Positions 12,764 through 37,108 of a stretch of DNA of 64,000 nucleotides are shown one piece after another. Made by a program: the position numbers and the translations under genes. The stretch is from an uncultured Chthoniobacter sp. GTDB lineage: Bacteria > Verrucomicrobiota > Verrucomicrobiia > Chthoniobacterales > UBA6821. Below the pieces are notes generated by a model that searched no databases, was not told the DNA's origin, and saw only the letters and a program-made list of their open reading frames with translations. The stretch spans positions 89,107-153,106 of the forward strand of contig CAYOAN010000002.1 of the NCBI GenBank assembly GCA_964402065.1, read 5' to 3'. Numbering within the stretch: the first letter of the stretch is position 1; every line of letters begins with the position of its first letter.

Positions 12764-12926
12764 TATAGTGTATGAAATTGAAAAAGGCACGCCATAAGCT
12801 TGCTCTTTTTCCTTAGGACTGCGTTCTCAGATCTTACGTTATCTTCGGATAACGTAAGATCTTCGGCTTTGTCCTAAGAAAAAATGTCGGCGCTTCTAAC
12901 ATGCTCTCTTTAAGTTAAGGAGCTAT
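12764..12926. mobile_element. MITE-like palindromic repeat, family A, copy 1
   Basis: It aligns along its length with the copies at 37605-37766 and 44022-44198. It contains a perfect 15-bp stem with a TTCG loop at 12828-12861. The right terminal repeat is degenerate. Confidence 0.6.
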
Positions 12927-14372: not shown

Positions 14373-14581
14373 AAAATCTCGTTTTAAATGCTACTCTTGA
14401 GGCACAGGGCCGTGTCGCTACGGCGTGTTAGGATGCTCATATGCACACGCTGCAGACCTGCTTTATTATTTCTTGTTTTGCATTCACAGTAGCGTGTTTG
14501 AATGAGACTCTGGGCATGTGATAGCAGCACTATTTTTCATATTTTATTCTTCAAAAGATCGTATTTGCTACAGGTTGTAGG

Positions 14582-15439
14582 TTACAGGAAAAAATAGTTG
14601 AGGAAAAAAATAAAGACAGATGCCGTAAGGCAGTAGAATCCAAAAAACTTCCAGCGCCCGCCTTCGAGCCAGCGAGAGAGCCAGCGTAAGGCAAGAAGCC
14701 CTGCAAAAAAACTAAAGACCATACCGACGAGGCTTTGGAAGAAGAGATGATGCAAGGGACCGTCGCTGCTGAACACATGAGCGTGTAGAAGTCGATGTAC
14801 TTCTTTTGCAATGACAACAGGAGTGAGAATCACAGCGAGAGCAAAACTAAATTCTTCAATCTTTTTTTTAGAAAGACCAAGAAGTAATCCTGTTGAAATA
14901 GTAGAACCAGAGCGCGAGAAGCCACGAAATGGAAGACAGAGACCTTGAACCAGTCCGATCAAAAAAGCTTGTTTGGAAGAGAGAGAGGAGGATGGTGCTA
15001 CTTTCTCTTCGCGATTTCCCGCATAAATCATGAAGAGACCGATTGCTGCAAGTGCTGTTGCAATCAAGGGAAGATTGGAAAAAAGCATTTCAATTTCAGC
15101 GTGAGGAGTGCCGCGTAAGAAGATTTTTTCGATGATAATTTTTAATCCGAGGCCAACGATGCCAGTGCACATTGTCGCTAAGAGTACTTGCTTTGCAAAA
15201 GACCATGCCGTTGCTGAAGAGGAAAAATAGTCCCGTTTCCATCCCTTCCAAAAATACGCAATTACAGCAAACATTGTTCCTGTATGAAGCATGACAAGAA
15301 GTAGGGTCATTGTAGGAGCCGAAGGATCAAGGCCCATTAATTTTTCTGCAACAATGACGTGAGCAGAACTCGAAACGGGAAGGAGTTCGCAAGCTCCTTG
15401 GATGATAGCGAGAATGAGGATTTGAAAGTAGGTCAACAT
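14582..15439 (-). CDS. uppP: Undecaprenyl-diphosphatase
   Basis: The N-terminus QGACELLPVSSSAHVI and the motif FRGFSRSGSTISTG are BacA/UppP signatures. The protein has multiple TM segments. Confidence 0.9.
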   Translation of the reverse strand: MLTYFQILILAIIQGACELLPVSSSAHVIVAEKLMGLDPSAPTMTLLLVMLHTGTMFAVIAYFWKGWKRDYFSSSATAWSFAKQVLLATMCTGIVGLGLKIIIEKIFLRGTPHAEIEMLFSNLPLIATALAAIGLFMIYAGNREEKVAPSSSLSSKQAFLIGLVQGLCLPFRGFSRSGSTISTGLLLGLSKKKIEEFSFALAVILTPVVIAKEVHRLLHAHVFSSDGPLHHLFFQSLVGMVFSFFAGLLALRWLSRWLEGGRWKFFGFYCLTASVFIFFLNYFFL

Positions 15440-15582
15440 GATTGAAGGATGAAGTAATGAGTAATGGAGTGATTGCTATTTTTAAAAGTTTTATTTCTCT
15501 AAGATGCCATTCTGTTAAAATAAAAAAATCAAAAGTCGATAACATTATATCGTATCTATCACTCATAACTCATTACTTTTTT

Positions 15583-25075: not shown

Positions 25076-25727
25076 CAGCGGATTCGGCATTTGTTTTTAA
25101 AAGTTGCTCCAATTTGATTCGTTCAGGCTCTAGATCGGTTAGCGATGGATCAATCGAGATGTAGTTGTCCGCAATCACTGTAATTTTGGAAAAGGGCCAA
25201 GGAATGGCAAAAGAGTCCCAAGTTTTTAAATGCCAAGCGCGGTGATAGCAGGCATGAAGTGGTAAAATAGGGAAGCCTGTTTTTTGAGCTAAAAAAACAA
25301 CGCCAGGACCTAATGAGTATTTTGGGCCACGAGGTCCATCAGGTGTAATAGCAAGATCGTAACCTTTCTCCAATTTTTCAGTCAGTTCTCGCAATGCTGT
25401 TGAACCACGACGCGAGCTAGAGCCGCGTACGGCACCCATTCCAAGGTTGGCCATGACTCCTGCAAGAATGTCTCCGTCTTTACTTGGGCTAGTTAGCACA
25501 ACGACACCACGACGAGAGAGGTGAGGATAGTGTCTCAAAAATGTAACGGCGATGGCTGGAATTCGGTTGTGCCAAAAAGTTATGAGGAGTGGTTCCTTGG
25601 AGGGGGTTGTGAGAAAACCGGATTTATCGATGACTTCTAGGCGAAGTGTGCGGAACAGCAAACGTGCTATCAGTGCTGCAAGTCCTGCAAGAATGCGTTC
25701 GCGATTGACCTTAAGCATGCCACTCAT
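25062..25727 (-). CDS. DUF374 / lysophospholipid acyltransferase-like protein
   Basis: The FWHNRI...[10 protein letters not shown]...[10 protein letters not shown] pattern is typical of DUF374. Confidence 0.75.
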
Positions 25728-26290
25728 TGTTCCTGCAAATTATTTTCCATACCCCATCGGCATGCGTTGGGGGCCTCTATTCCCAGTTGATCCAGTATAC
25801 GAAAGACAACTGTATCTGCGAGTTCCTCGAAGGTTTGAGGGTTGCTGTAAAAAGAGGGCATGGCAGGTAAGACAGAAGCCCCTGCTTCCATAACAGTGAC
25901 AATATTGCGAGCTTGGATTAGATTCCATGGCGTTTCACGGACGACAAGGATAAGCTTACGGCGTTCTTTTAAAAAAACATCTGCTGCTCGCAGAATGAGT
26001 GTTTCAGCAGTTCCAGATGCAATGCGTCCAATAGTTCCCATTGAGCAAGGAATAATAATCATCGCATCGAAGAGGGCAGAGCCACTCGCAAAAGGAGCCA
26101 TCATTGATTTATCTTGGTATTGGTGCGCTTCTGGTGGGATGGCTAAGCTTCCTAATTCTTGATGAATTACCTGTTTTGCATAACCACTCATCACAAGATG
26201 AAGGTCGTGACCTTTTCCTTGTAGGTGGTGGAGGAAGCGTTGAAGATAGAGAGCTCCACTCGCTCCAGTAGCAGCAATAACAAGACGCAT
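25724..26290 (-). CDS. ubiX: Flavin prenyltransferase UbiX
   Basis: MRLVIAATGASGALY..., PCSMGTIGRIASG and a size of 188 aa all fit UbiX. Confidence 0.9.
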   Translation of the reverse strand: MRLVIAATGASGALYLQRFLHHLQGKGHDLHLVMSGYAKQVIHQELGSLAIPPEAHQYQDKSMMAPFASGSALFDAMIIIPCSMGTIGRIASGTAETLILRAADVFLKERRKLILVVRETPWNLIQARNIVTVMEAGASVLPAMPSFYSNPQTFEELADTVVFRILDQLGIEAPNACRWGMENNLQEQ

Positions 26291-26334
26291 GGTCAGGAGA
26301 TTATAGGTTGTAGTTTTTAGGTTACAGTAAAAAA
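26291..26334 (-). promoter_or_regulatory. Phased heptad leader element (T-run plus five CTNNNNN units) abutting the ubiX ATG
   Basis: The minus strand reads TTTTTTA CTGTAAC CTAAAAA CTACAAC CTATAAT CTCCTGA CC ATG. It is closely similar to the element at 35504-35546. Confidence 0.4.
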
Positions 26335-26555
26335 GAATTGAATTTCTAAAAAAAGAATAGAGGTTGAATCTGTCTCTTACTTATGAAAAAGAAATAAGTG
26401 AGTTGACAAAGTCGACGCCAACGGCAACAGTGGTGAGGTAAATTTTTAAAAAACCAACGAGAACGACTCTCTTTCTTTTTTTGGAGGGAGAGTCGTTTTT
26501 TTACCTTGCTATCATTCTTAACATCCCTTATTCTTTCGGACCAATTTCTTCGGCT

Positions 26556-30887: not shown

Positions 30888-30986
30888 GATAGAATAGTAA
30901 GCGCAAAAGAAGATAAAGAGCGCAAAAAATGAAAGAGAATTAAAAATTTTCTGTAGCCTCCAGCAGCGAGACAGTAGGCTCTTCTT

Positions 30987-34544: not shown

Positions 34545-35503
34545 TCAAGTCTAACTCGCGGGTCTACTAAGGCGTAGAGTAGGTCGGAGAAAAGATTTCC
34601 TAAAAGAACCAACGTGGCAACGATCATATTCAGAGTGATTAAAATGGGGTAGTCTCGTTCGAGGACAGCTTGGTATCCCAGTTGTCCCATTCCAGGATAA
34701 GCAAAGATTGTTTCGATAATGACGGAGCCGCTAATGAGGCTTGGAAGGAGCATTCCAAGCCCAGTGATCAGAGGACGAAGAGAATTTCGAAGCGCGTGTT
34801 GATAAAGAACAACTGTAGGGGAGAGGCCTTTGGCGCGTGCAGTAAGAATGTAATTTTCTTGTAATGTTTCGATCATGCTGGAGCGAAGATAGCGTGATTG
34901 AGTAGCAATGCCAGCAAGGGAGAGGACAATCGCAGGCAACATTAAGTGCCATAGTCGATCAAGCCACAAAGTAAGATGATTCGGAAAATCAATGCCGTAA
35001 CTTTGAGTTCCTAAAATGGGAATGCCACTATATTTAATAAGTGTGAGGATGAGTAAATAGGAAATCCAAAATCCTGGCAGTGCAATGAAAAGAAATGAAA
35101 ATAAGGAAAGCAACATGGCTTGCCAGTTTTTCCGATAGAGCGCGCTGTAGAGCCCAAGCAATGTGCCAAAGGAGAGCGAAAAAAGAATCGCTGTTATGTT
35201 TAATGACAAGGTAGCAGGAAGACGAGCTGTGATTTTTTTCATGACAGGAAGATCATCCTTCATGCTTCGCAGTTCTCCCGTGAAAAGATCATGCAGCATC
35301 ATTTTGTACTGTTGGTGCAGGGGGAGATCGAGGTGAAATTTTTTGCGAAAGGCGGCCTTCACCTCCGGAGAAATTTTAGGATTCATTTCACCCCAGGGGT
35401 AAGGACTTCCTGGTGTGAGAGTCATGATGAAAAATGAAATAAAGCTAATGAGAAAAAGCAAAACAATACTGAGACCAAGTCGGCGCAGAATAAAGGCGAG
35501 CAT
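34541..35503 (-). CDS. Peptide ABC transporter permease (DppB/OppB-like)
   Basis: MLAFILRRLGLSIVLLFLISFISFF..., YILTARAKGLS. It overlaps the next permease gene by 4 nt. Confidence 0.88.
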   Translation of the reverse strand: MLAFILRRLGLSIVLLFLISFISFFIMTLTPGSPYPWGEMNPKISPEVKAAFRKKFHLDLPLHQQYKMMLHDLFTGELRSMKDDLPVMKKITARLPATLSLNITAILFSLSFGTLLGLYSALYRKNWQAMLLSLFSFLFIALPGFWISYLLILTLIKYSGIPILGTQSYGIDFPNHLTLWLDRLWHLMLPAIVLSLAGIATQSRYLRSSMIETLQENYILTARAKGLSPTVVLYQHALRNSLRPLITGLGMLLPSLISGSVIIETIFAYPGMGQLGYQAVLERDYPILITLNMIVATLVLLGNLFSDLLYALVDPRVRLE

Positions 35504-35546
35504 CGCGGCAGGTTATAGGCTAGAGATTTTAGGTTACAGGAAAAAA
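35504..35546 (-). promoter_or_regulatory. Phased heptad leader element abutting the permease ATG
   Basis: The minus strand reads TTTTTTC CTGTAAC CTAAAAT CTCTAGC CTATAAC CTGCCGC G ATG. Confidence 0.4.
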
Positions 35547-35611
35547 TACAGGACTAATTTCTATGTTAAAAAAGCATTGTCACTTAGTAAAAATTCCATA
35601 ACATACCGGCC

Positions 35612-37108
35612 ATGGACATTCCTGCTCCAACAATCTCTTCGTTCTCACTCGAAACTTTCGAAAGCTTTATTAAGGACAATCCTGGTGCTACCAATATCGG
35701 TATTTCTGAAGGCCGCATTGTGGAAAGAAATCCTGCAGAAGATCCAGATCAGGTCAGAACAAAAGAAGCTTTTCAACAGGCTCTAGTCGAGAAATATCCA
35801 GATCAAGCAGCGCTCGTTGAGGCAGCTTTTCATGATTTACAAGTTTCAGGAAAAACCTGGAGTGCTCATACCATTAAACAAGTCATCAAGCAAGCAGCAG
35901 AAAATGAAGATAGCTCAGTTTTGAGAGAGGGTGTTAATAGTGACCAAGAAACTTCTCAAGAAAACATTAATCAACTTGCCAGGGCGATTAACGATTATGC
36001 TGATAAAATTGTCGAGCAACTTTCTCCTGAAGAGCAAGGTGCGTTGCAAGAGCAATTGGCAGCTTCCAGTTTGGCGATTGGCGGGGCTGGGTTCGTTGGA
36101 CTAGTAGCTAATCTTTCTACTCCGGAAGCTAATGCTGCGCTAGCGCATCTTATCACAACAATTAGCGCTTCTTTACCCCAAGGCGCAGCTCTTCCAATGA
36201 TGGGAGCGGCCGCTCCATCGGCCCTTGCAACTGGACATGCCGTTGCAGCAAGTCTTCCTGCAACTCATCTTGCAGCCGCCGCCGCTCTCATGGGTAGTGC
36301 TACGACTGTTACTGCTTCTGCTGTTGCCGTGGAGGCGAGTATTGCTGCTGCTGCGCCTGCTATAGCTACATTTATTATTGCAGGAGCTGTTGCTCATCGT
36401 CTTTGGCTCGTGGCACGAAGAGTTCAGATACAAGCTACAGCAGCAGAACATCGTATGAGGCATCTTGAAAATGAAATCATGATGATTACAACGGGTATGA
36501 TTGGCGCTGCCTGTGCTACTATTCCTCCTGCTCAACATGCTTTATTAATAGGTGCCATCATTGGTGGCATGGCAGGACAAAATTTTCTTGATGAAGGTCT
36601 CCTACATAATGCATTCCATACTATCCGAGATGGTGCATTAGGTGCTTATTTATGGGCTCACCCTGAAGTCACTGTTGCTATTGGCCGTGCTTTGAAAACG
36701 TTCTTGTTTTCCGTTGGTAAGGCTGTTGCTTCTGCGTCAGGTGTTTCAAGTGTTGCTAATCCAGTCTCTGCGACAACAACAGTAGGAATAGCTGCGGCAA
36801 CCACCACTACTACCGCGGCAGCAGTCACAACAACAGCAACGGCTGGTGCTGCTTCATCAACTTCAACTGTAGGCTCGACAACGGCTGCACATGTTGCTTC
36901 AACATCTTTCTTGCCTCATTACATTACAGCAATGGTGCCTCATGGTTTGAGCTCCGCGACAGCTACTGTTACCGCTGTTATTGCTGCACATCCGATAGCA
37001 GCTACTGCTATCATCGTTGGGGGAGCCTGTGCTTTAGCTTATCAATATACTTCAGGTTCTTCGAGTTCTACCACTTCTGCTAATACTTCCGAGGATTCAA
37101 CCGCATAA
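35612..37108 (+). CDS. Ala/Thr-rich membrane protein with bilobed hydrophobic domains (Inc-like candidate)
   Basis: 498 aa. About 150 hydrophilic N-terminal residues are followed by several hydrophobic stretches, including ITTGMIGAACATIPPAQHALLIGAIIGGMAG. The tail is Thr/Ala/Ser-rich and low-complexity. Confidence 0.6.
   Translation: MDIPAPTISSFSLETFESFIKDNPGATNIGISEGRIVERNPAEDPDQVRTKEAFQQALVEKYPDQAALVEAAFHDLQVSGKTWSAHTIKQVIKQAAENEDSSVLREGVNSDQETSQENINQLARAINDYADKIVEQLSPEEQGALQEQLAASSLAIGGAGFVGLVANLSTPEANAALAHLITTISASLPQGAALPMMGAAAPSALATGHAVAASLPATHLAAAAALMGSATTVTASAVAVEASIAAAAPAIATFIIAGAVAHRLWLVARRVQIQATAAEHRMRHLENEIMMITTGMIGAACATIPPAQHALLIGAIIGGMAGQNFLDEGLLHNAFHTIRDGALGAYLWAHPEVTVAIGRALKTFLFSVGKAVASASGVSSVANPVSATTTVGIAAATTTTTAAAVTTTATAGAASSTSTVGSTTAAHVASTSFLPHYITAMVPHGLSSATATVTAVIAAHPIAATAIIVGGACALAYQYTSGSSSSTTSANTSEDSTA

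What the first reader, a model, noticed from the sequence alone, without database searches (positions are those of the whole stretch)
26291..26334. Phased heptad element, T-run plus (CTNNNNN)x5, ending 1-2 nt before the ATG of three unrelated genes
The three leaders, read in gene orientation, are:
- ubiX: TTTTTTA CTGTAAC CTAAAAA CTACAAC CTATAAT CTCCTGA CC ATG.
- Permease (35504-35546): TTTTTTC CTGTAAC CTAAAAT CTCTAGC CTATAAC CTGCCGC G ATG.
- tyrS (61022-61062): TTTTT CTGTAGC CTGCAGT CTGTAAT CTGTAAC CTTTTCG C ATG.

Every unit starts with CT at an exact 7-nt period, and the array is fixed in register with the start codon. The fourth unit of the first two resembles a -10 hexamer (TATAAT, TATAAC) only 9-10 nt from the ATG. 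That would imply leaderless or near-leaderless mRNAs. Alternatively the array could bind a protein that recognises tandem heptads, or it could be a mobile promoter cassette. I know of no described element with this architecture.
Basis: seen in the sequence. Interest (0 to 1): 0.65.

Follow-up and report, generated by a model that had tools for sequence, protein, structure and literature searches.

The report
Tandem-heptad promoter-like cassette at start codons
A 42-base unit (a run of T followed by four or five 7-base repeats) sits at a fixed position directly in front of the start codon of many unrelated genes in one group of uncultured freshwater Verrucomicrobia; it most likely acts as a copied-around promoter that starts the mRNA at the start codon itself, though no experiment has tested this.

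Summary

They belong to a large family confined to a narrow clade of freshwater Chthoniobacterales (Verrucomicrobiota). Seventy of 112 exact hits in a scan of 185,579 species genomes came from 11 such MAGs.

The consensus is AAtTTTTT(C) + CTGTAAC CTGYARC CTGYARC CTGTARC + CTGynnn(C) + ATG. There are four full heptads in 46 of 54 copies. The start codon lies 8-9 nt after the fourth heptad.

That register places a TANNNT hexamer (TAACCT) at -12..-7 relative to the A of ATG in 49 of 54 copies.

My best reading (about 45%) is a self-contained sigma-70-type core promoter for leaderless mRNA:
- the T-run acts as an UP-like tract;
- heptad 1 sits at the -35 position;
- the junction of heptads 4 and 5 is the -10.

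The cassette spreads and is replaced like a mobile promoter.

Rival readings remain open. The array could be a transcribed leader used for start-site selection in this Shine-Dalgarno-poor clade. It could be an operator for a protein that reads heptads. It could be a function-less repeat family.

I found no published description. Mapping of transcript 5' ends would decide the question.

The parts
26328..26334 (-). T-run (TTTTTTA) of the ubiX copy; proposed UP-like A/T tract at about -44..-38
   Evidence: In the family logo T is at 40-47 of 51 at five consecutive positions.
26293..26327 (-). Five heptads of the ubiX copy: CTGTAAC CTAAAAA CTACAAC CTATAAT CTCCTGA, followed by CC (26292-26291) and ATG (26290-26288)
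   Evidence: Orthologous arrays lie before ubiX in VHCR01 (L057) and JAIEQF01 (L059).
26298..26305 (-). Candidate -10 of the ubiX copy: TAATCT (26303-26298, -13..-8) overlapping TATAAT (26305-26300, -15..-10)
   Evidence: Read from the sequence. The junction hexamer is TANNNT in 49 of 54 family members.
25724..26290 (-). ubiX-like flavoprotein gene served by the array
   Evidence: Pfam PF02441, E 2.8e-41.
35540..35546 (-). T-run (TTTTTTC) of the permease copy
35505..35539 (-). Five heptads of the permease copy: CTGTAAC CTAAAAT CTCTAGC CTATAAC CTGCCGC, followed by G and ATG (35503-35501). TAACCT at 35515-35510 lies exactly at -12..-7.
   Evidence: The gene is an ABC permease (BPD_transp_1).
61022..61026 (+). 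T-run (TTTTT) of the tyrS copy, 13 nt after the stop codon of the upstream gene
   Evidence: Identical in three other same-species contigs.
61027..61061 (+). Five heptads of the tyrS copy: CTGTAGC CTGCAGT CTGTAAT CTGTAAC CTTTTCG, followed by C and ATG (61063). TAACCT at 61051-61056 lies at -12..-7.
   Evidence: No array before tyrS in a relative with 91% identical TyrS or in relatives at 58-66% identity.
14567..14594 (-). Truncated copy: TTTTTTC CTGTAAC CTACAAC CTGTAGC. It overlaps the uppP stop codon and is separated from the DUF6941 gene ATG (14372) by a 194-nt insertion.
   Evidence: In VHCR01 (L036) the orthologous array abuts the ATG of that gene.
30947..30986 (+). Degenerate copy: TTTT CTGTAGC CTCCAGC AGCGAGA CAGTAGG CTCTTCTT, then ATG 30987 (RNase HII-like gene)
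47725..47761 (-). Degenerate copy: TTGCAGC CTATAGT CTACGGC CTTTTAG GTTTTCC TG, then ATG 47724 (class-V aminotransferase gene). TAGGTT lies at -12..-7.

Best explanation
The element is a compact, self-contained sigma-70-type core promoter built from tandem heptads. It starts transcription at or within 1-3 nt of the A of the start codon, so the genes it serves are expressed from leaderless mRNA.

**Proposed layout, numbered from the A of ATG**
- AAtTTTTT at about -45..-38: an UP-like A/T tract.
- Heptad 1, CTGTAA(C), at -36..-31: occupies the -35 position. It resembles the TTGTCA/TTGTCC -35 boxes seen elsewhere in this clade.
- Heptads 2-3 plus CTG: an 18-bp spacer.
- TAACCT, spanning heptads 4 and 5, at -12..-7: the -10 element of the TANNNT class.
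- GCnnC(C): a G+C-rich discriminator.
- C|ATG: the start site.

Because the unit CTGTAAC carries both a -35-like and a -10-like word, four copies in tandem create a correctly spaced promoter.

**How it evolves.** The cassette behaves as a repeat family. It has multiplied in a few closely related Chthoniobacterales genomes. Its copies are homogenised or replaced by copying. It is exchanged with other upstream cassettes at orthologous genes.

**Shown versus inferred**
- Shown: the anatomy, the register with start codons, the restriction to one clade, and the turnover.
- Inferred: the start site, the assignment of -35, -10 and UP roles, and the mechanism of spread.
For: **1. Strict coupling to start codons**
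- Of 93 loosely defined arrays in the clade, 42 have their first ATG 7-10 nt after the last full heptad, and 40 of those open ORFs of at least 60 aa. For random positions the figure is 1.4%.
- The distances are 8 nt (30 copies), 9 (15), 7 (4) and 10 (2).
- The same DNA pattern in 42 hits from other phyla is never in register with a start codon.

**2. A -10-like hexamer at the right distance**
- TANNNT lies at the heptad 4/5 junction in 49 of 54 copies.
- The start codon is ATG in 50 of 54.
- In heptad 4, position 4 is T in 48 of 51 copies, against 25 and 31 of 51 in heptads 2 and 3. The CT of heptad 5 is present in 49-50 of 51. None of these positions was imposed by the search.

**3. Fixed geometry**
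- 46 of 54 copies have four heptads plus the tail. This is expected if both ends of the array are anchored at -35/-10 spacing.
- No conserved motif lies upstream of the T-run, so no separate upstream promoter is visible.

**4. Not specific to translation**
- One array abuts the mature 5' end of tRNA-Arg in L014.

**5. The variant in L047**
- A 16-nt hairpin is inserted into the array, yet TAACCT-N6-ATG is kept and TTGTCC appears exactly 17 nt upstream of it.

**6. Independent leaderless-type promoters in the same clade**
- Window gene 35612 has TTGTCA-N16-TAACAT-N7-ATG.
- The family-ii element ...TTTTGTGGCTATTCT-N6-8-ATG is another example.
- Genes without arrays show a NANNNT peak at -12: 53 against about 30 at other offsets.
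- At the aldolase gene (93% amino-acid identity) the window carries the family-ii element where JAIEQF01 carries the heptad array. Both put a TANNNT 6-7 nt before the ATG.

**7. No Shine-Dalgarno to explain translation**
- SD-like words are depleted upstream of starts: 7.6% against 13.3% in random 17-mers.

**8. No sign of a structured RNA**
- Fold z-scores are -0.5 to +0.4.
- Rfam gives no hit.

**9. Conserved at orthologous genes while the flanks diverge**
- This holds for ubiX in three genomes at about 85% amino-acid identity and for five other gene pairs.
- In the window lineage the decaying ubiX and permease arrays keep heptad 1 intact and drift towards TATAAT/TATAAC in heptad 4.

**10. 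Established knowledge (from memory)**
- TANNNT 6-8 nt before the start codon is the hallmark of leaderless genes in Actinobacteria and Deinococcus.
- An A/T tract abutting a TTGTCA -35, combined with a G+C-rich discriminator, is the layout of E. coli rrnB P1.
Against: - **No 5' ends are mapped.** Every functional assignment is inferred.
- **More is conserved than sigma-70 would need.** C1, T2, A5 and C7 are almost invariant in every heptad, including the proposed spacer (heptads 2-3) and the non-critical middle of the -10. Part of this reflects my search pattern. The rest needs either copying or concerted evolution or a reader with a 7-nt period.
- **The -35 match is weak.** CTGTAA matches TTGACA at 3 of 6 positions, and the conserved C at position 1 is not the T that would improve it.
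- **A related heptad family lacks the hexamer.** (YCNTTAC)n occupies orthologous positions in the window. It has no TANNNT at the junction, and its distance to the ATG varies.
- **An alternative -10 exists.** The T-run with its preceding A forms a NANNNT word in 49 of 54 copies. A start site inside heptad 1, with the array as a 34-nt leader, therefore cannot be excluded.
- **Immediate upstream sequence is pyrimidine-rich in other genes as well**.
- **Stop-free arrays occur in frame inside coding regions**. Array formation or insertion therefore does not depend on promoter function.
- **Only one of eight tRNA genes examined has an array**.
Confidence: 0.45

Rival explanations
1. The array is transcribed and forms a leader of about 34 nt. 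The promoter's -10 is the A plus T-run just upstream (nAnTTT), and transcription starts in heptad 1. The unstructured, G-poor tandem heptads then recruit or position the ribosome at a fixed distance from the AUG. This organism does not use Shine-Dalgarno pairing; ribosomal protein S1 or a protein with a footprint of about 7 nt, such as a cold-shock-domain protein, could do the positioning.
For: - SD-like words are depleted upstream of starts, and upstream regions are G-poor and pyrimidine-rich in general. Some Verrucomicrobia are reported to be SD-scarce (PMC10783764).
- A NANNNT word lies in the 14 nt before the array in 49 of 54 copies.
- The related (YCNTTAC)n arrays are often preceded by TANNNT words (TAAACT, TAAAAT, TAACTT), as expected for a leader, and they replace CTGTAAC arrays at orthologous genes.
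- The arrays have no secondary structure.
- Conservation of every heptad, including heptads 2-3, suits a periodic reader.
Against: - Only 20 of 54 copies have a full TANNNT before the array. The key A is present in only 67%, and there is no -35 or extended -10.
- A translational role does not explain the array that abuts tRNA-Arg.
- It does not explain why position 4 of heptad 4 differs from that of heptads 2-3.
- It does not readily explain the fixed count of four heptads.
- No complementarity to the 16S rRNA 3' region was evident. I checked this only against the E. coli sequence from memory.
Confidence: 0.22
2. The array is an operator. A clade-specific DNA-binding protein reads contiguous 7-bp repeats, one dimer per heptad, as the ribbon-helix-helix protein omega does on pSM19035. 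It coats the promoter and start region and co-regulates a large set of housekeeping genes.
For: - The 7-bp periodicity is strict, with the same positions (C1, T2, A5, C7) conserved in all four or five units.
- Four contiguous units is the norm. That matches the minimum array size for full activity of omega on its heptads (PMC9499535).
- The array covers the region where a promoter must lie.
Against: - No candidate protein was identified.
- The heptad sequence (CTGYARC) is unrelated to WATCACW.
- All units are direct repeats.
- Positions 3, 4 and 6 vary freely between arrays but are uniform within an array. That points to copying rather than to a single recognition code.
- The served genes are functionally unrelated.
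- The array is lost or swapped at orthologous genes without obvious consequence.
Confidence: 0.1
3. The arrays are a function-less (selfish or mutational) family of short tandem repeats, comparable to the heptanucleotide STRR repeats of cyanobacteria. They arise or insert preferentially at transcription and translation start regions and are merely tolerated there.
For: - The distribution looks like a burst: 28 strict hits in one MAG, 12-13 in two others, a few in others, and none in 418 kb from more distant relatives.
- Only fragments occur in 58 kb from relatives with 78-84% identical TrpS.
- Within-array homogeneity is strong.
- One array has expanded to at least 9 units (L072).
- Stop-free arrays sit in frame inside genes.
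- Similar (CTGTAAC)n runs exist in unrelated phyla.
Against: - A neutral repeat would not keep a fixed count of four units. It would not keep an 8-9 nt distance to the ATG, or a T at position 4 specifically in heptad 4.
- It would not be conserved at orthologous genes whose flanks have diverged.
- Several array-led genes have no room for any other promoter. The divergent permease/35612 pair has a 108-nt intergenic region, and the tyrS spacer is 54 nt.
Confidence: 0.13
4. The array is a phase-variation (contingency) locus in which slippage changes the number of heptads and switches expression.
For: - It is a tandem 7-nt repeat next to promoters and start codons.
- One expanded array exists (L072).
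Against: - The units within an array are not identical.
- The copy number is fixed at four across orthologues and species.
- Four same-species contigs from different samples carry the identical array.
- The served genes are housekeeping genes.
Confidence: 0.02

Closest known systems
Promoters of leaderless genes in Actinobacteria and Deinococcus-Thermus (-10 TANNNT 6-8 nt upstream of the start codon)
   Same: A TANNNT hexamer at -12..-7 from the A of the start codon. No Shine-Dalgarno sequence. ATG starts predominate. Housekeeping genes are served.
   Different: - Those promoters are unrelated sequences that share only the -10 word.
- Here the entire 42 bp from -44 to -1 is one repeated, 7-bp-periodic cassette.
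- The phylum is Verrucomicrobiota, for which I found no report of leaderless transcription.
Putative mobile promoters / promoter propagation (Matus-Garcia, Nijveen and van Passel 2012; PMC3575422)
   Same: Homologous upstream sequences in front of non-homologous genes within a genome. Gain, loss and swapping occur between close relatives.
   Different: - PMPs were defined as at least 50 nt at 80% identity or more within -150..-50, so a 42-nt element at -43..-1 would not have been detected.
- PMPs have no internal periodicity and no fixed register with the start codon.
Omega (RHH ParB) heptad operators/parS of plasmid pSM19035 (PMC9499535)
   Same: Contiguous, ungapped 7-bp repeats overlapping promoters. 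Four contiguous units is a functional threshold.
   Different: - The consensus is WATCACW, against CTGYARC here.
- Those sites have 7-10 units in mixed orientation; here there are 4-5 units, all direct.
- Those are three plasmid promoters; here there are dozens to hundreds of chromosomal genes.
- No cognate protein is known here.
STRR, the short tandemly repeated repetitive heptanucleotides of heterocystous cyanobacteria (from memory: Mazel et al. 1990)
   Same: Tandem heptanucleotide repeats dispersed in many intergenic copies and restricted to a lineage. My scan also hit (CTGTAAC)n in Nostocales.
   Different: - STRR arrays are near-perfect repeats of variable length.
- They have no known register to start codons; the Nostocales hits here are not next to starts.
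- Their function is unknown.
E. coli rrnB P1 layout: A/T-rich UP element abutting a TTGTCA -35, with a G+C-rich discriminator (from memory)
   Same: AAATTT..C next to (C/T)TGT.A at the -35 position, and a G+C-rich stretch between the -10 and +1.
   Different: - The spacer is 18 bp here rather than 16 bp.
- The spacer is itself made of the repeat unit.
- The transcript starts at the start codon.

Membership tests
Sigma-70-type promoter of a leaderless mRNA | -10 hexamer of the TANNNT class ending 6-8 nt upstream of the first base of the start codon | tested here: met
   Present in 49 of 54 family members. Window copies: TAACCT at -12..-7 (permease, tyrS) and TAATCT at -13..-8 (ubiX).
Sigma-70-type promoter of a leaderless mRNA | Primary transcript 5' end coincides with the start codon | not testable with these tools
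   No transcript data are available. This is the decisive missing test.
Sigma-70-type promoter of a leaderless mRNA | -35 element (TTGACA-like) 16-18 bp upstream of the -10 | tested here: inconclusive
   CTGTAA lies 18 bp upstream and matches at 3 of 6 positions. It resembles the TTGTCA and TTGTCC (L047) boxes of the clade. The tool's consensus scan did not call a promoter in any of the three arrays.
Sigma-70-type promoter of a leaderless mRNA | No Shine-Dalgarno sequence; AUG start codon | tested here: met
   There is no SD in any copy, and ATG is the start in 50 of 54. The absence of SD is clade-wide, however, so it does not discriminate.
Omega-type (RHH) heptad operator | At least 2-4 contiguous, ungapped 7-bp repeats | tested here: met
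   Four to five contiguous units.
Omega-type (RHH) heptad operator | Heptad consensus WATCACW, in direct and inverted orientations | tested here: not met
   The consensus is CTGYARC and all units are direct.
Omega-type (RHH) heptad operator | A cognate RHH protein encoded nearby and autoregulated | not tested
   I did not search for a candidate. The arrays precede unrelated housekeeping genes.
Cyanobacterial STRR repeats | Near-perfect tandem heptanucleotide arrays of variable length, dispersed in the genomes of heterocystous cyanobacteria | tested here: not met
   The host is Verrucomicrobiota. The units are imperfect, the number is fixed at four, and the array is in register with start codons.
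Phase-variable simple sequence repeat (contingency locus) | Copy number varies between close strains or orthologues | tested here: not met
   The array is identical in four same-species contigs. Orthologues in different species keep four units.
Putative mobile promoter (PMP) as defined in PMC3575422 | At least 80% identity over at least 50 nt within -150..-50, upstream of non-paralogous genes | tested here: not met
   The element is about 42 nt long and lies at -43..-1. It meets the concept (shared upstream sequence before unrelated genes) but not the operational definition.
MITE / REP-type miniature mobile element | Terminal inverted repeats or a palindromic hairpin, and target-site duplication | tested here: not met
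   There is no inverted repeat or stable fold (z between -0.5 and +0.4). No duplication is evident at the borders.
Structured cis-regulatory RNA (riboswitch, leader) | Conserved secondary structure or a match to an Rfam family | tested here: not met
   No Rfam match and no structure beyond that of shuffled sequence.

The most novel reading that the evidence does not exclude
The 7-nt periodicity may itself be what is read, or what is made. Two versions are possible.

- A clade-specific factor (a DNA-binding protein, an RNA-polymerase accessory factor, or an RNA-binding protein with a 7-nt footprint) recognises the CT..A..C lattice. It would define a regulon of a hundred or more housekeeping genes whose transcription or translation starts at a fixed distance from the array.
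- A dedicated copying or repeat-generating mechanism installs four-unit heptad arrays at gene starts, and in frame inside genes.

Either version would be a mode of start-site specification, or of promoter genesis, with no described precedent in bacteria.
Probability: 0.2. Interest if true: 0.85.

Novelty: new variant of a known kind. Interest (0 to 1): 0.62.

Why it matters
- **A promoter made entirely of a tandem repeat.** If the leaderless-promoter reading holds, four copies of one 7-bp word supply the -35, the spacer and the -10. That gives a very short mutational path (repeat expansion or copying) from no promoter to a working one.
- **Promoter turnover seen in progress.** The family is gained, homogenised, decays and is swapped for other cassettes between genomes whose proteins are 85-96% identical.
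- **Leaderless expression in a new phylum.** The data point to widespread leaderless expression and independence from Shine-Dalgarno pairing in an uncultured, ecologically common freshwater Verrucomicrobia clade. That bears on gene-start annotation in such MAGs.
- **A possible genetic part.** The cassette would be a ready-made 42-bp part for genetics in a phylum that has almost none.
- **If the rival periodic-reader idea holds.** It would reveal a new way of marking gene starts.

Tried and rejected
- **Structured RNA or riboswitch.** Rejected: no Rfam hits and fold energies equal to shuffles.
- **Three-frame stop insulator.** TAA/TAG at a 7-nt period would cover all three frames. Rejected because heptads 2-3 are often CAA/CAG, and the conserved TAA of heptads 1 and 4 are 21 nt apart, so they fall in the same frame.
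- **Phase variation.** Rejected: fixed copy number and identical arrays across samples.
- **MITE or palindromic element.** Rejected: no inverted repeats.
- **ECF-sigma promoter.** TGTAAC resembles ECF -35 boxes (from memory). Rejected because no CGTC-type -10 lies at 16-17 nt.
- **Pairing with the 16S rRNA 3' end.** I saw no convincing complementarity, but checked only against the E. coli sequence from memory. No 16S gene of this clade was available.
- **More non-coding RNA genes next to arrays.** Rfam scans of 40 loci found only tRNAs. Only 1 of 8 tRNAs has an array.
- **Unbiased sampling of relatives through TrpS homologues**. This gave 58 kb with only array fragments. It is informative about the patchy distribution but added no new canonical copies.
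- **Literature searches.** Searches for the heptad words, for leaderless transcription in Verrucomicrobia and for heptad repeats found no description of the element.
- **A 194-nt insertion in the window.** It separates the truncated array at 14594 from its gene. It has no Rfam match and no significant fold.
Full report
**1. The observation**

On the minus strand, TTTTTTA plus five CTNNNNN units (26334-26293) end 2 nt before the ATG at 26290. On the minus strand, TTTTTTC plus five units (35546-35505) end 1 nt before the ATG at 35503. On the plus strand, TTTTT plus five units (61022-61061) end 1 nt before the ATG at 61063.

Pfam confirms a UbiX-type flavoprotein, an ABC-transporter permease and a class-I (Trp/Tyr) tRNA synthetase. 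Orthologue alignments begin at residue 1, so the start codons are reliable.

- Five phased CT dinucleotides occur 4 times in the window against 0.18 expected.
- The sharper pattern TTTNCTGTARCCTNNARNCTNNARNCT is found 3 times exactly, and once more with 2 mismatches, against 0.00 expected.
- A position-weight scan found three further weaker copies: 14594-14567 (-), 30947-30986 (+) and 47761-47725 (-). The last two also run up to an ATG.

**2. A family restricted to one clade**

Seventy of the matches come from 11 Verrucomicrobiota MAGs, nearly all labelled Chthoniobacterales: 28 from JAIEQF01, 13 from VHCR01 and 12 from JAPLTJ01.

Proteins of these MAGs are 79-97% identical to each other and to the window. 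The nearest named relatives of the window's TrpS are Chthoniobacterales and Terrimicrobiaceae, with Terrimicrobium at 72%.

The family is narrow and patchy.
- No array occurs in 418 kb around tyrS orthologues from other Verrucomicrobia at 58-66% identity.
- A relative with 91% identical TyrS has no array before tyrS.
- 58 kb from relatives with 78-84% identical TrpS hold only fragments.

The remaining 42 scan hits come from Nostocales, Acidobacteriota, candidate-phyla-radiation (CPR) bacteria and others. They are tandem CTGTAAC-like runs that are not in register with gene starts: 3 of 42 have an ORF-opening ATG within 25 nt, and none is in register.

**3. Anatomy**

I aligned 51 copies, anchored only on heptads 3-4 and a start codon. 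The consensus is AAtTTTTT(C) | CTGTAAC | CTGYARC | CTGYARC | CTGTARC | CTGynnn | (C)ATG.

- C1, T2, A5 and C7 are nearly invariant in every unit. Positions 3, 4 and 6 vary.
- Position 4 is T in 48 of 51 copies in heptad 4, but only in 25 and 31 of 51 in heptads 2 and 3. The CT that opens the fifth unit is present in 49-50 of 51. None of these positions was imposed by the search.
- Nothing is conserved upstream of the T-run.
- The number of full heptads is four in 46 of 54 copies. This counts seven cases where the T-run itself was scored as a unit.
- The arrays have no secondary structure beyond that of shuffles and match no Rfam family.

**4. Coupling to start codons**

Of 93 loosely defined arrays in clade DNA, 42 have their first ATG 7-10 nt after the last full heptad, and 40 of these open ORFs of at least 60 aa. 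Random positions give 6% and 1.4% respectively. The distances are 8 nt (30 copies), 9 (15), 7 (4) and 10 (2). Most other values (1-2, 15-16) are the same register shifted by one heptad. The start codon is ATG in 50 of 54.

The served genes are unrelated housekeeping genes. Pfam supports the UbiX-like, permease and Trp/Tyr-synthetase assignments. My provisional identifications of others, such as CoaD, RuvA, DnaE and a PfkB kinase, rest only on N-terminal sequences.

**5. Evolutionary behaviour**

- *Conservation.* Arrays are conserved at orthologous genes while the flanks have diverged. This holds for ubiX in three genomes at about 85% amino-acid identity and for five more gene pairs.
- *Concerted evolution.* Arrays also evolve in concert. 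Position 6 is all-A in 31 and all-G in 25 of 72 arrays. Mean identity between units is 6.13 of 7 within arrays, against 5.40 +/- 0.04 after permutation.
- *Whole-unit replacement.* Orthologues with 96.5% identical proteins carry CTGCAAC-type units in one genome and CTTCAGC-type units in the other (L108 and L017). Units are therefore replaced as a block rather than mutated one at a time.
- *Cassette swaps.* At the DeoC/LacD aldolase gene (93% amino-acid identity), JAIEQF01 has the heptad array. The window has a different repeated element...TGTGTTCTTTGCGTTTTTTTGTGGCTATTCT-CCACTCC-ATG. At uppP and its divergent neighbour, VHCR01 has CTGTAAC arrays where the window has (TCATTAC)-type heptads.
- *Arrays inside genes.* Stop-free variants (CTYCAGC) occur in frame inside genes. 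Two lie in a 638-aa CysN/CysC-like ORF, one of them within a roughly 12-14-residue insertion relative to solved homologues. One lies in the N-terminus of a FolC-like gene.
- *No copy-number polymorphism.* The tyrS array is identical in three other contigs of the same species from different samples. One array has expanded to at least 9 units at a contig end (L072).

**6. Most likely mechanism**

Counting from the A of ATG in the commonest register gives this layout:
- TAACCT (heptad 4 positions 4-7 plus the CT of unit 5) occupies -12..-7.
- The six or seven bases GCnnC(C) form a G+C-rich discriminator.
- C|A is the junction at -1/+1.
- CTGTAA of heptad 1 lies 18 bp upstream of the hexamer, at the -35 position.
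- The T-run covers about -43..-38, where UP-element proximal subsites lie (established knowledge of E. coli promoters).

TANNNT at that distance from a start codon is the recognised signature of leaderless genes in Actinobacteria and Deinococcus (established knowledge). It is present in 49 of 54 copies.

Several observations fit this reading.
- The model explains why the heptad number is fixed: changing it by one unit would destroy the -35/-10 spacing.
- It explains why position 4 is constrained in heptad 4 but relaxed in heptads 2-3.
- It explains why the two decaying window arrays keep heptad 1 intact and drift to TATAAT/TATAAC in heptad 4.
- In L047, a 16-nt hairpin inserted between heptads 3 and 4 is tolerated. 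That copy keeps TAACCT-N6-ATG and gains TTGTCC exactly 17 bp upstream of it.
- One array directly abuts the mature 5' end of tRNA-Arg. This argues for a role in transcription rather than a purely translational one.

The clade also uses this design without heptads.
- Window gene 35612 has TTGTCA-N16-TAACAT-N7-ATG.
- The family-ii element places TATTCT 6-8 nt before several ATGs and 20 nt before tRNA-Leu.
- Genes without arrays show an excess of NANNNT at -12: 53 against about 30.

Classical leadered promoters exist too: TTGACA-N17-TACCTT before rplM and TTGCAG-N17-TACCTT before tRNA-Met, both read. Ordinary sigma-70 rules therefore seem to apply in this organism.

Shine-Dalgarno words are depleted upstream of starts, at 7.6% against 13.3%. 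This agrees with reports that some Verrucomicrobia are SD-scarce (PMC10783764).

All of this is inference from geometry and comparison. No 5' end has been mapped.

**7. What does not fit, and the rivals**

The array is more conserved than a sigma-70 promoter requires. C1, T2, A5 and C7 are held in the proposed spacer and in the non-critical middle of the -10. Part of that comes from my search pattern and from copying, but a reader with a 7-nt period cannot be excluded.

Other difficulties:
- The -35 match is weak.
- The related (YCNTTAC)n arrays have no junction TANNNT, and their distance to the ATG varies, yet they occupy orthologous positions.
- The A plus T-run forms a NANNNT word in 49 of 54 copies. 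Transcription could therefore start in heptad 1, leaving the array as an unstructured 34-nt leader that positions ribosomes in an organism without SD pairing. I rate this at 0.22.
- An omega-like operator (0.10) shares the contiguous 7-bp lattice and the four-unit threshold (PMC9499535). It shares neither sequence, orientation pattern nor context, and no protein is known.
- A function-less repeat family (0.13) fits the burst-like distribution, the arrays inside coding regions and the occurrence of similar runs in other phyla. It does not explain the fixed unit number, the register, the heptad-4 asymmetry or the orthologous conservation.
- Phase variation is essentially excluded.

**8. Comparison with what is known**

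In function the element most resembles the -10-only promoters of leaderless genes. In evolution it most resembles the "putative mobile promoters" of Matus-Garcia et al. (PMC3575422). Their operational definition (at least 50 nt, within -150..-50) would have missed it.

It differs from both in being a single periodic cassette that spans -44 to -1 and is locked to the start codon. It is not an STRR, a MITE or REP element, a riboswitch or a contingency locus; the membership table gives the tests.

Searches of 8 million full texts found no description of it.

**9. Verdict**

I classify the element as a new variant of a known kind: a propagated core promoter for leaderless mRNA, built from tandem heptads. 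There is about a 0.2 chance that the periodicity reflects something without precedent, either a heptad-reading factor or an array-generating mechanism. Interest is 0.62.

Noticed in passing
window 45576-45611 (-), ATG at 45568; about 20 copies in loci such as L012, L041, L051, L081: A second repeated upstream cassette ('family ii'): (TTTGTGTTC)2-3 TTTTGTGG[CT] TAnnnT.
- In the window it lies 7 nt before the ATG of a DeoC/LacD aldolase gene. The JAIEQF01 orthologue carries a heptad array there instead.
- It also sits 20 nt upstream of tRNA-Leu in L041.
- It looks like a strong promoter family made of roughly 10-nt tandem repeats.
   Followed up: partly
window 15556-15582 (+) before ATG 15583; window 15440-15467 (-) before uppP ATG 15439; about 15 copies in loci: A third heptad family, (YCNTTAC)n, for example TCGTTAC, CCGTTAC and TCATTAC.
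- It lies upstream of genes at variable distance from the ATG.
- It lacks a junction TANNNT.
- It occupies the orthologous positions of CTGTAAC arrays in VHCR01 (L036).
   Followed up: partly
window 35577-35611 (+): A classical-looking promoter, TTGTCA-N16-TAACAT, ends 7 nt before the ATG of gene 35612-37108 (no Pfam match). This suggests a leaderless transcript, divergent from the array-led permease operon.
   Followed up: partly
window-wide and clade loci (380 putative starts): - Shine-Dalgarno-like words are depleted upstream of start codons (7.6% against 13.3% in random 17-mers).
- Upstream regions are G-poor and rich in C and T.
- Genes without arrays show an A at -11 and T at -7 signal.
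   Followed up: partly
L053 1894-3810 (-); L195 1813-1860 (+): Stop-free heptad arrays (CTTCAGC/CTCCAGC x4) are read through in frame inside apparently intact genes.
- Two lie in a 638-aa CysN/CysC-like protein. One sits just after the start. The other lies in a roughly 12-14-residue insertion between the P-loop and switch I.
- One lies in the N-terminus of a FolC-like protein.
   Followed up: partly
window 14373-14566 (-): A 194-nt segment separates the truncated array at 14594-14567 from the ATG of a DUF6941 gene. In VHCR01 the orthologous array abuts that ATG. The segment has no Rfam match and a fold z-score of -0.6. Its origin is unknown.
   Followed up: partly
L047, minus strand around rc index 569-640: A 16-nt G+C hairpin (CCCCGCGAAGGCGGGG) is inserted between heptads 3 and 4 of an otherwise canonical array. 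The insertion creates TTGTCC exactly 17 bp upstream of the retained TAACCT-N6-ATG.
   Followed up: partly
L072 (JBIRBD01) contig end: An array has expanded to at least nine perfect CTGTAGC units and runs into the contig end. This indicates occasional repeat expansion, or an assembly break at the repeat.
   Followed up: no
L055, L062, L096, L100 (Candidatus Yanofskybacteria); L065, L075 (Acidobacteriota): Divergent pairs of heptad arrays face outward from a short A/T-rich centre, for example (GGTGTCA)4 GGTTTAA TTTT (CTGTAAC CTGAAAC)2. They occur in unrelated phyla and are not coupled to start codons.
   Followed up: no
L052, L084, L109, L060, L064, L021 (Nostocales): A conserved multi-genome locus, ...acagaattaattacaca...TTT(T/C) CTGTAAC CT(G/T)TAAC CTGTAAC CTnTTCC..., probably an STRR-type repeat context. 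It is unrelated to gene starts.
   Followed up: no
window 12805-12839 (+): A fourth run of five phased CT dinucleotides (CTTTTTC CTTAGGA CTGCGTT CTCAGAT CTTACGT). It has no family consensus, no T-run and no adjacent ATG. It is either chance or a decayed relic.
   Followed up: no
window 26402-26422 (-) and 26467-26500 (+): Terminator-like hairpins with T-tails lie on both strands in the 190-nt region upstream of the ubiX array. This fits ubiX being the first gene of its transcription unit.
   Followed up: no
L020 rc 1649, L051 4253, L080 rc 951, L014 rc 2045: A sub-family of arrays is preceded by ...gaagccctaa(c/t)ttttaC instead of the plain T-run. Several are followed by a hairpin-containing leader before the ATG rather than by the ATG itself.
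   Followed up: no
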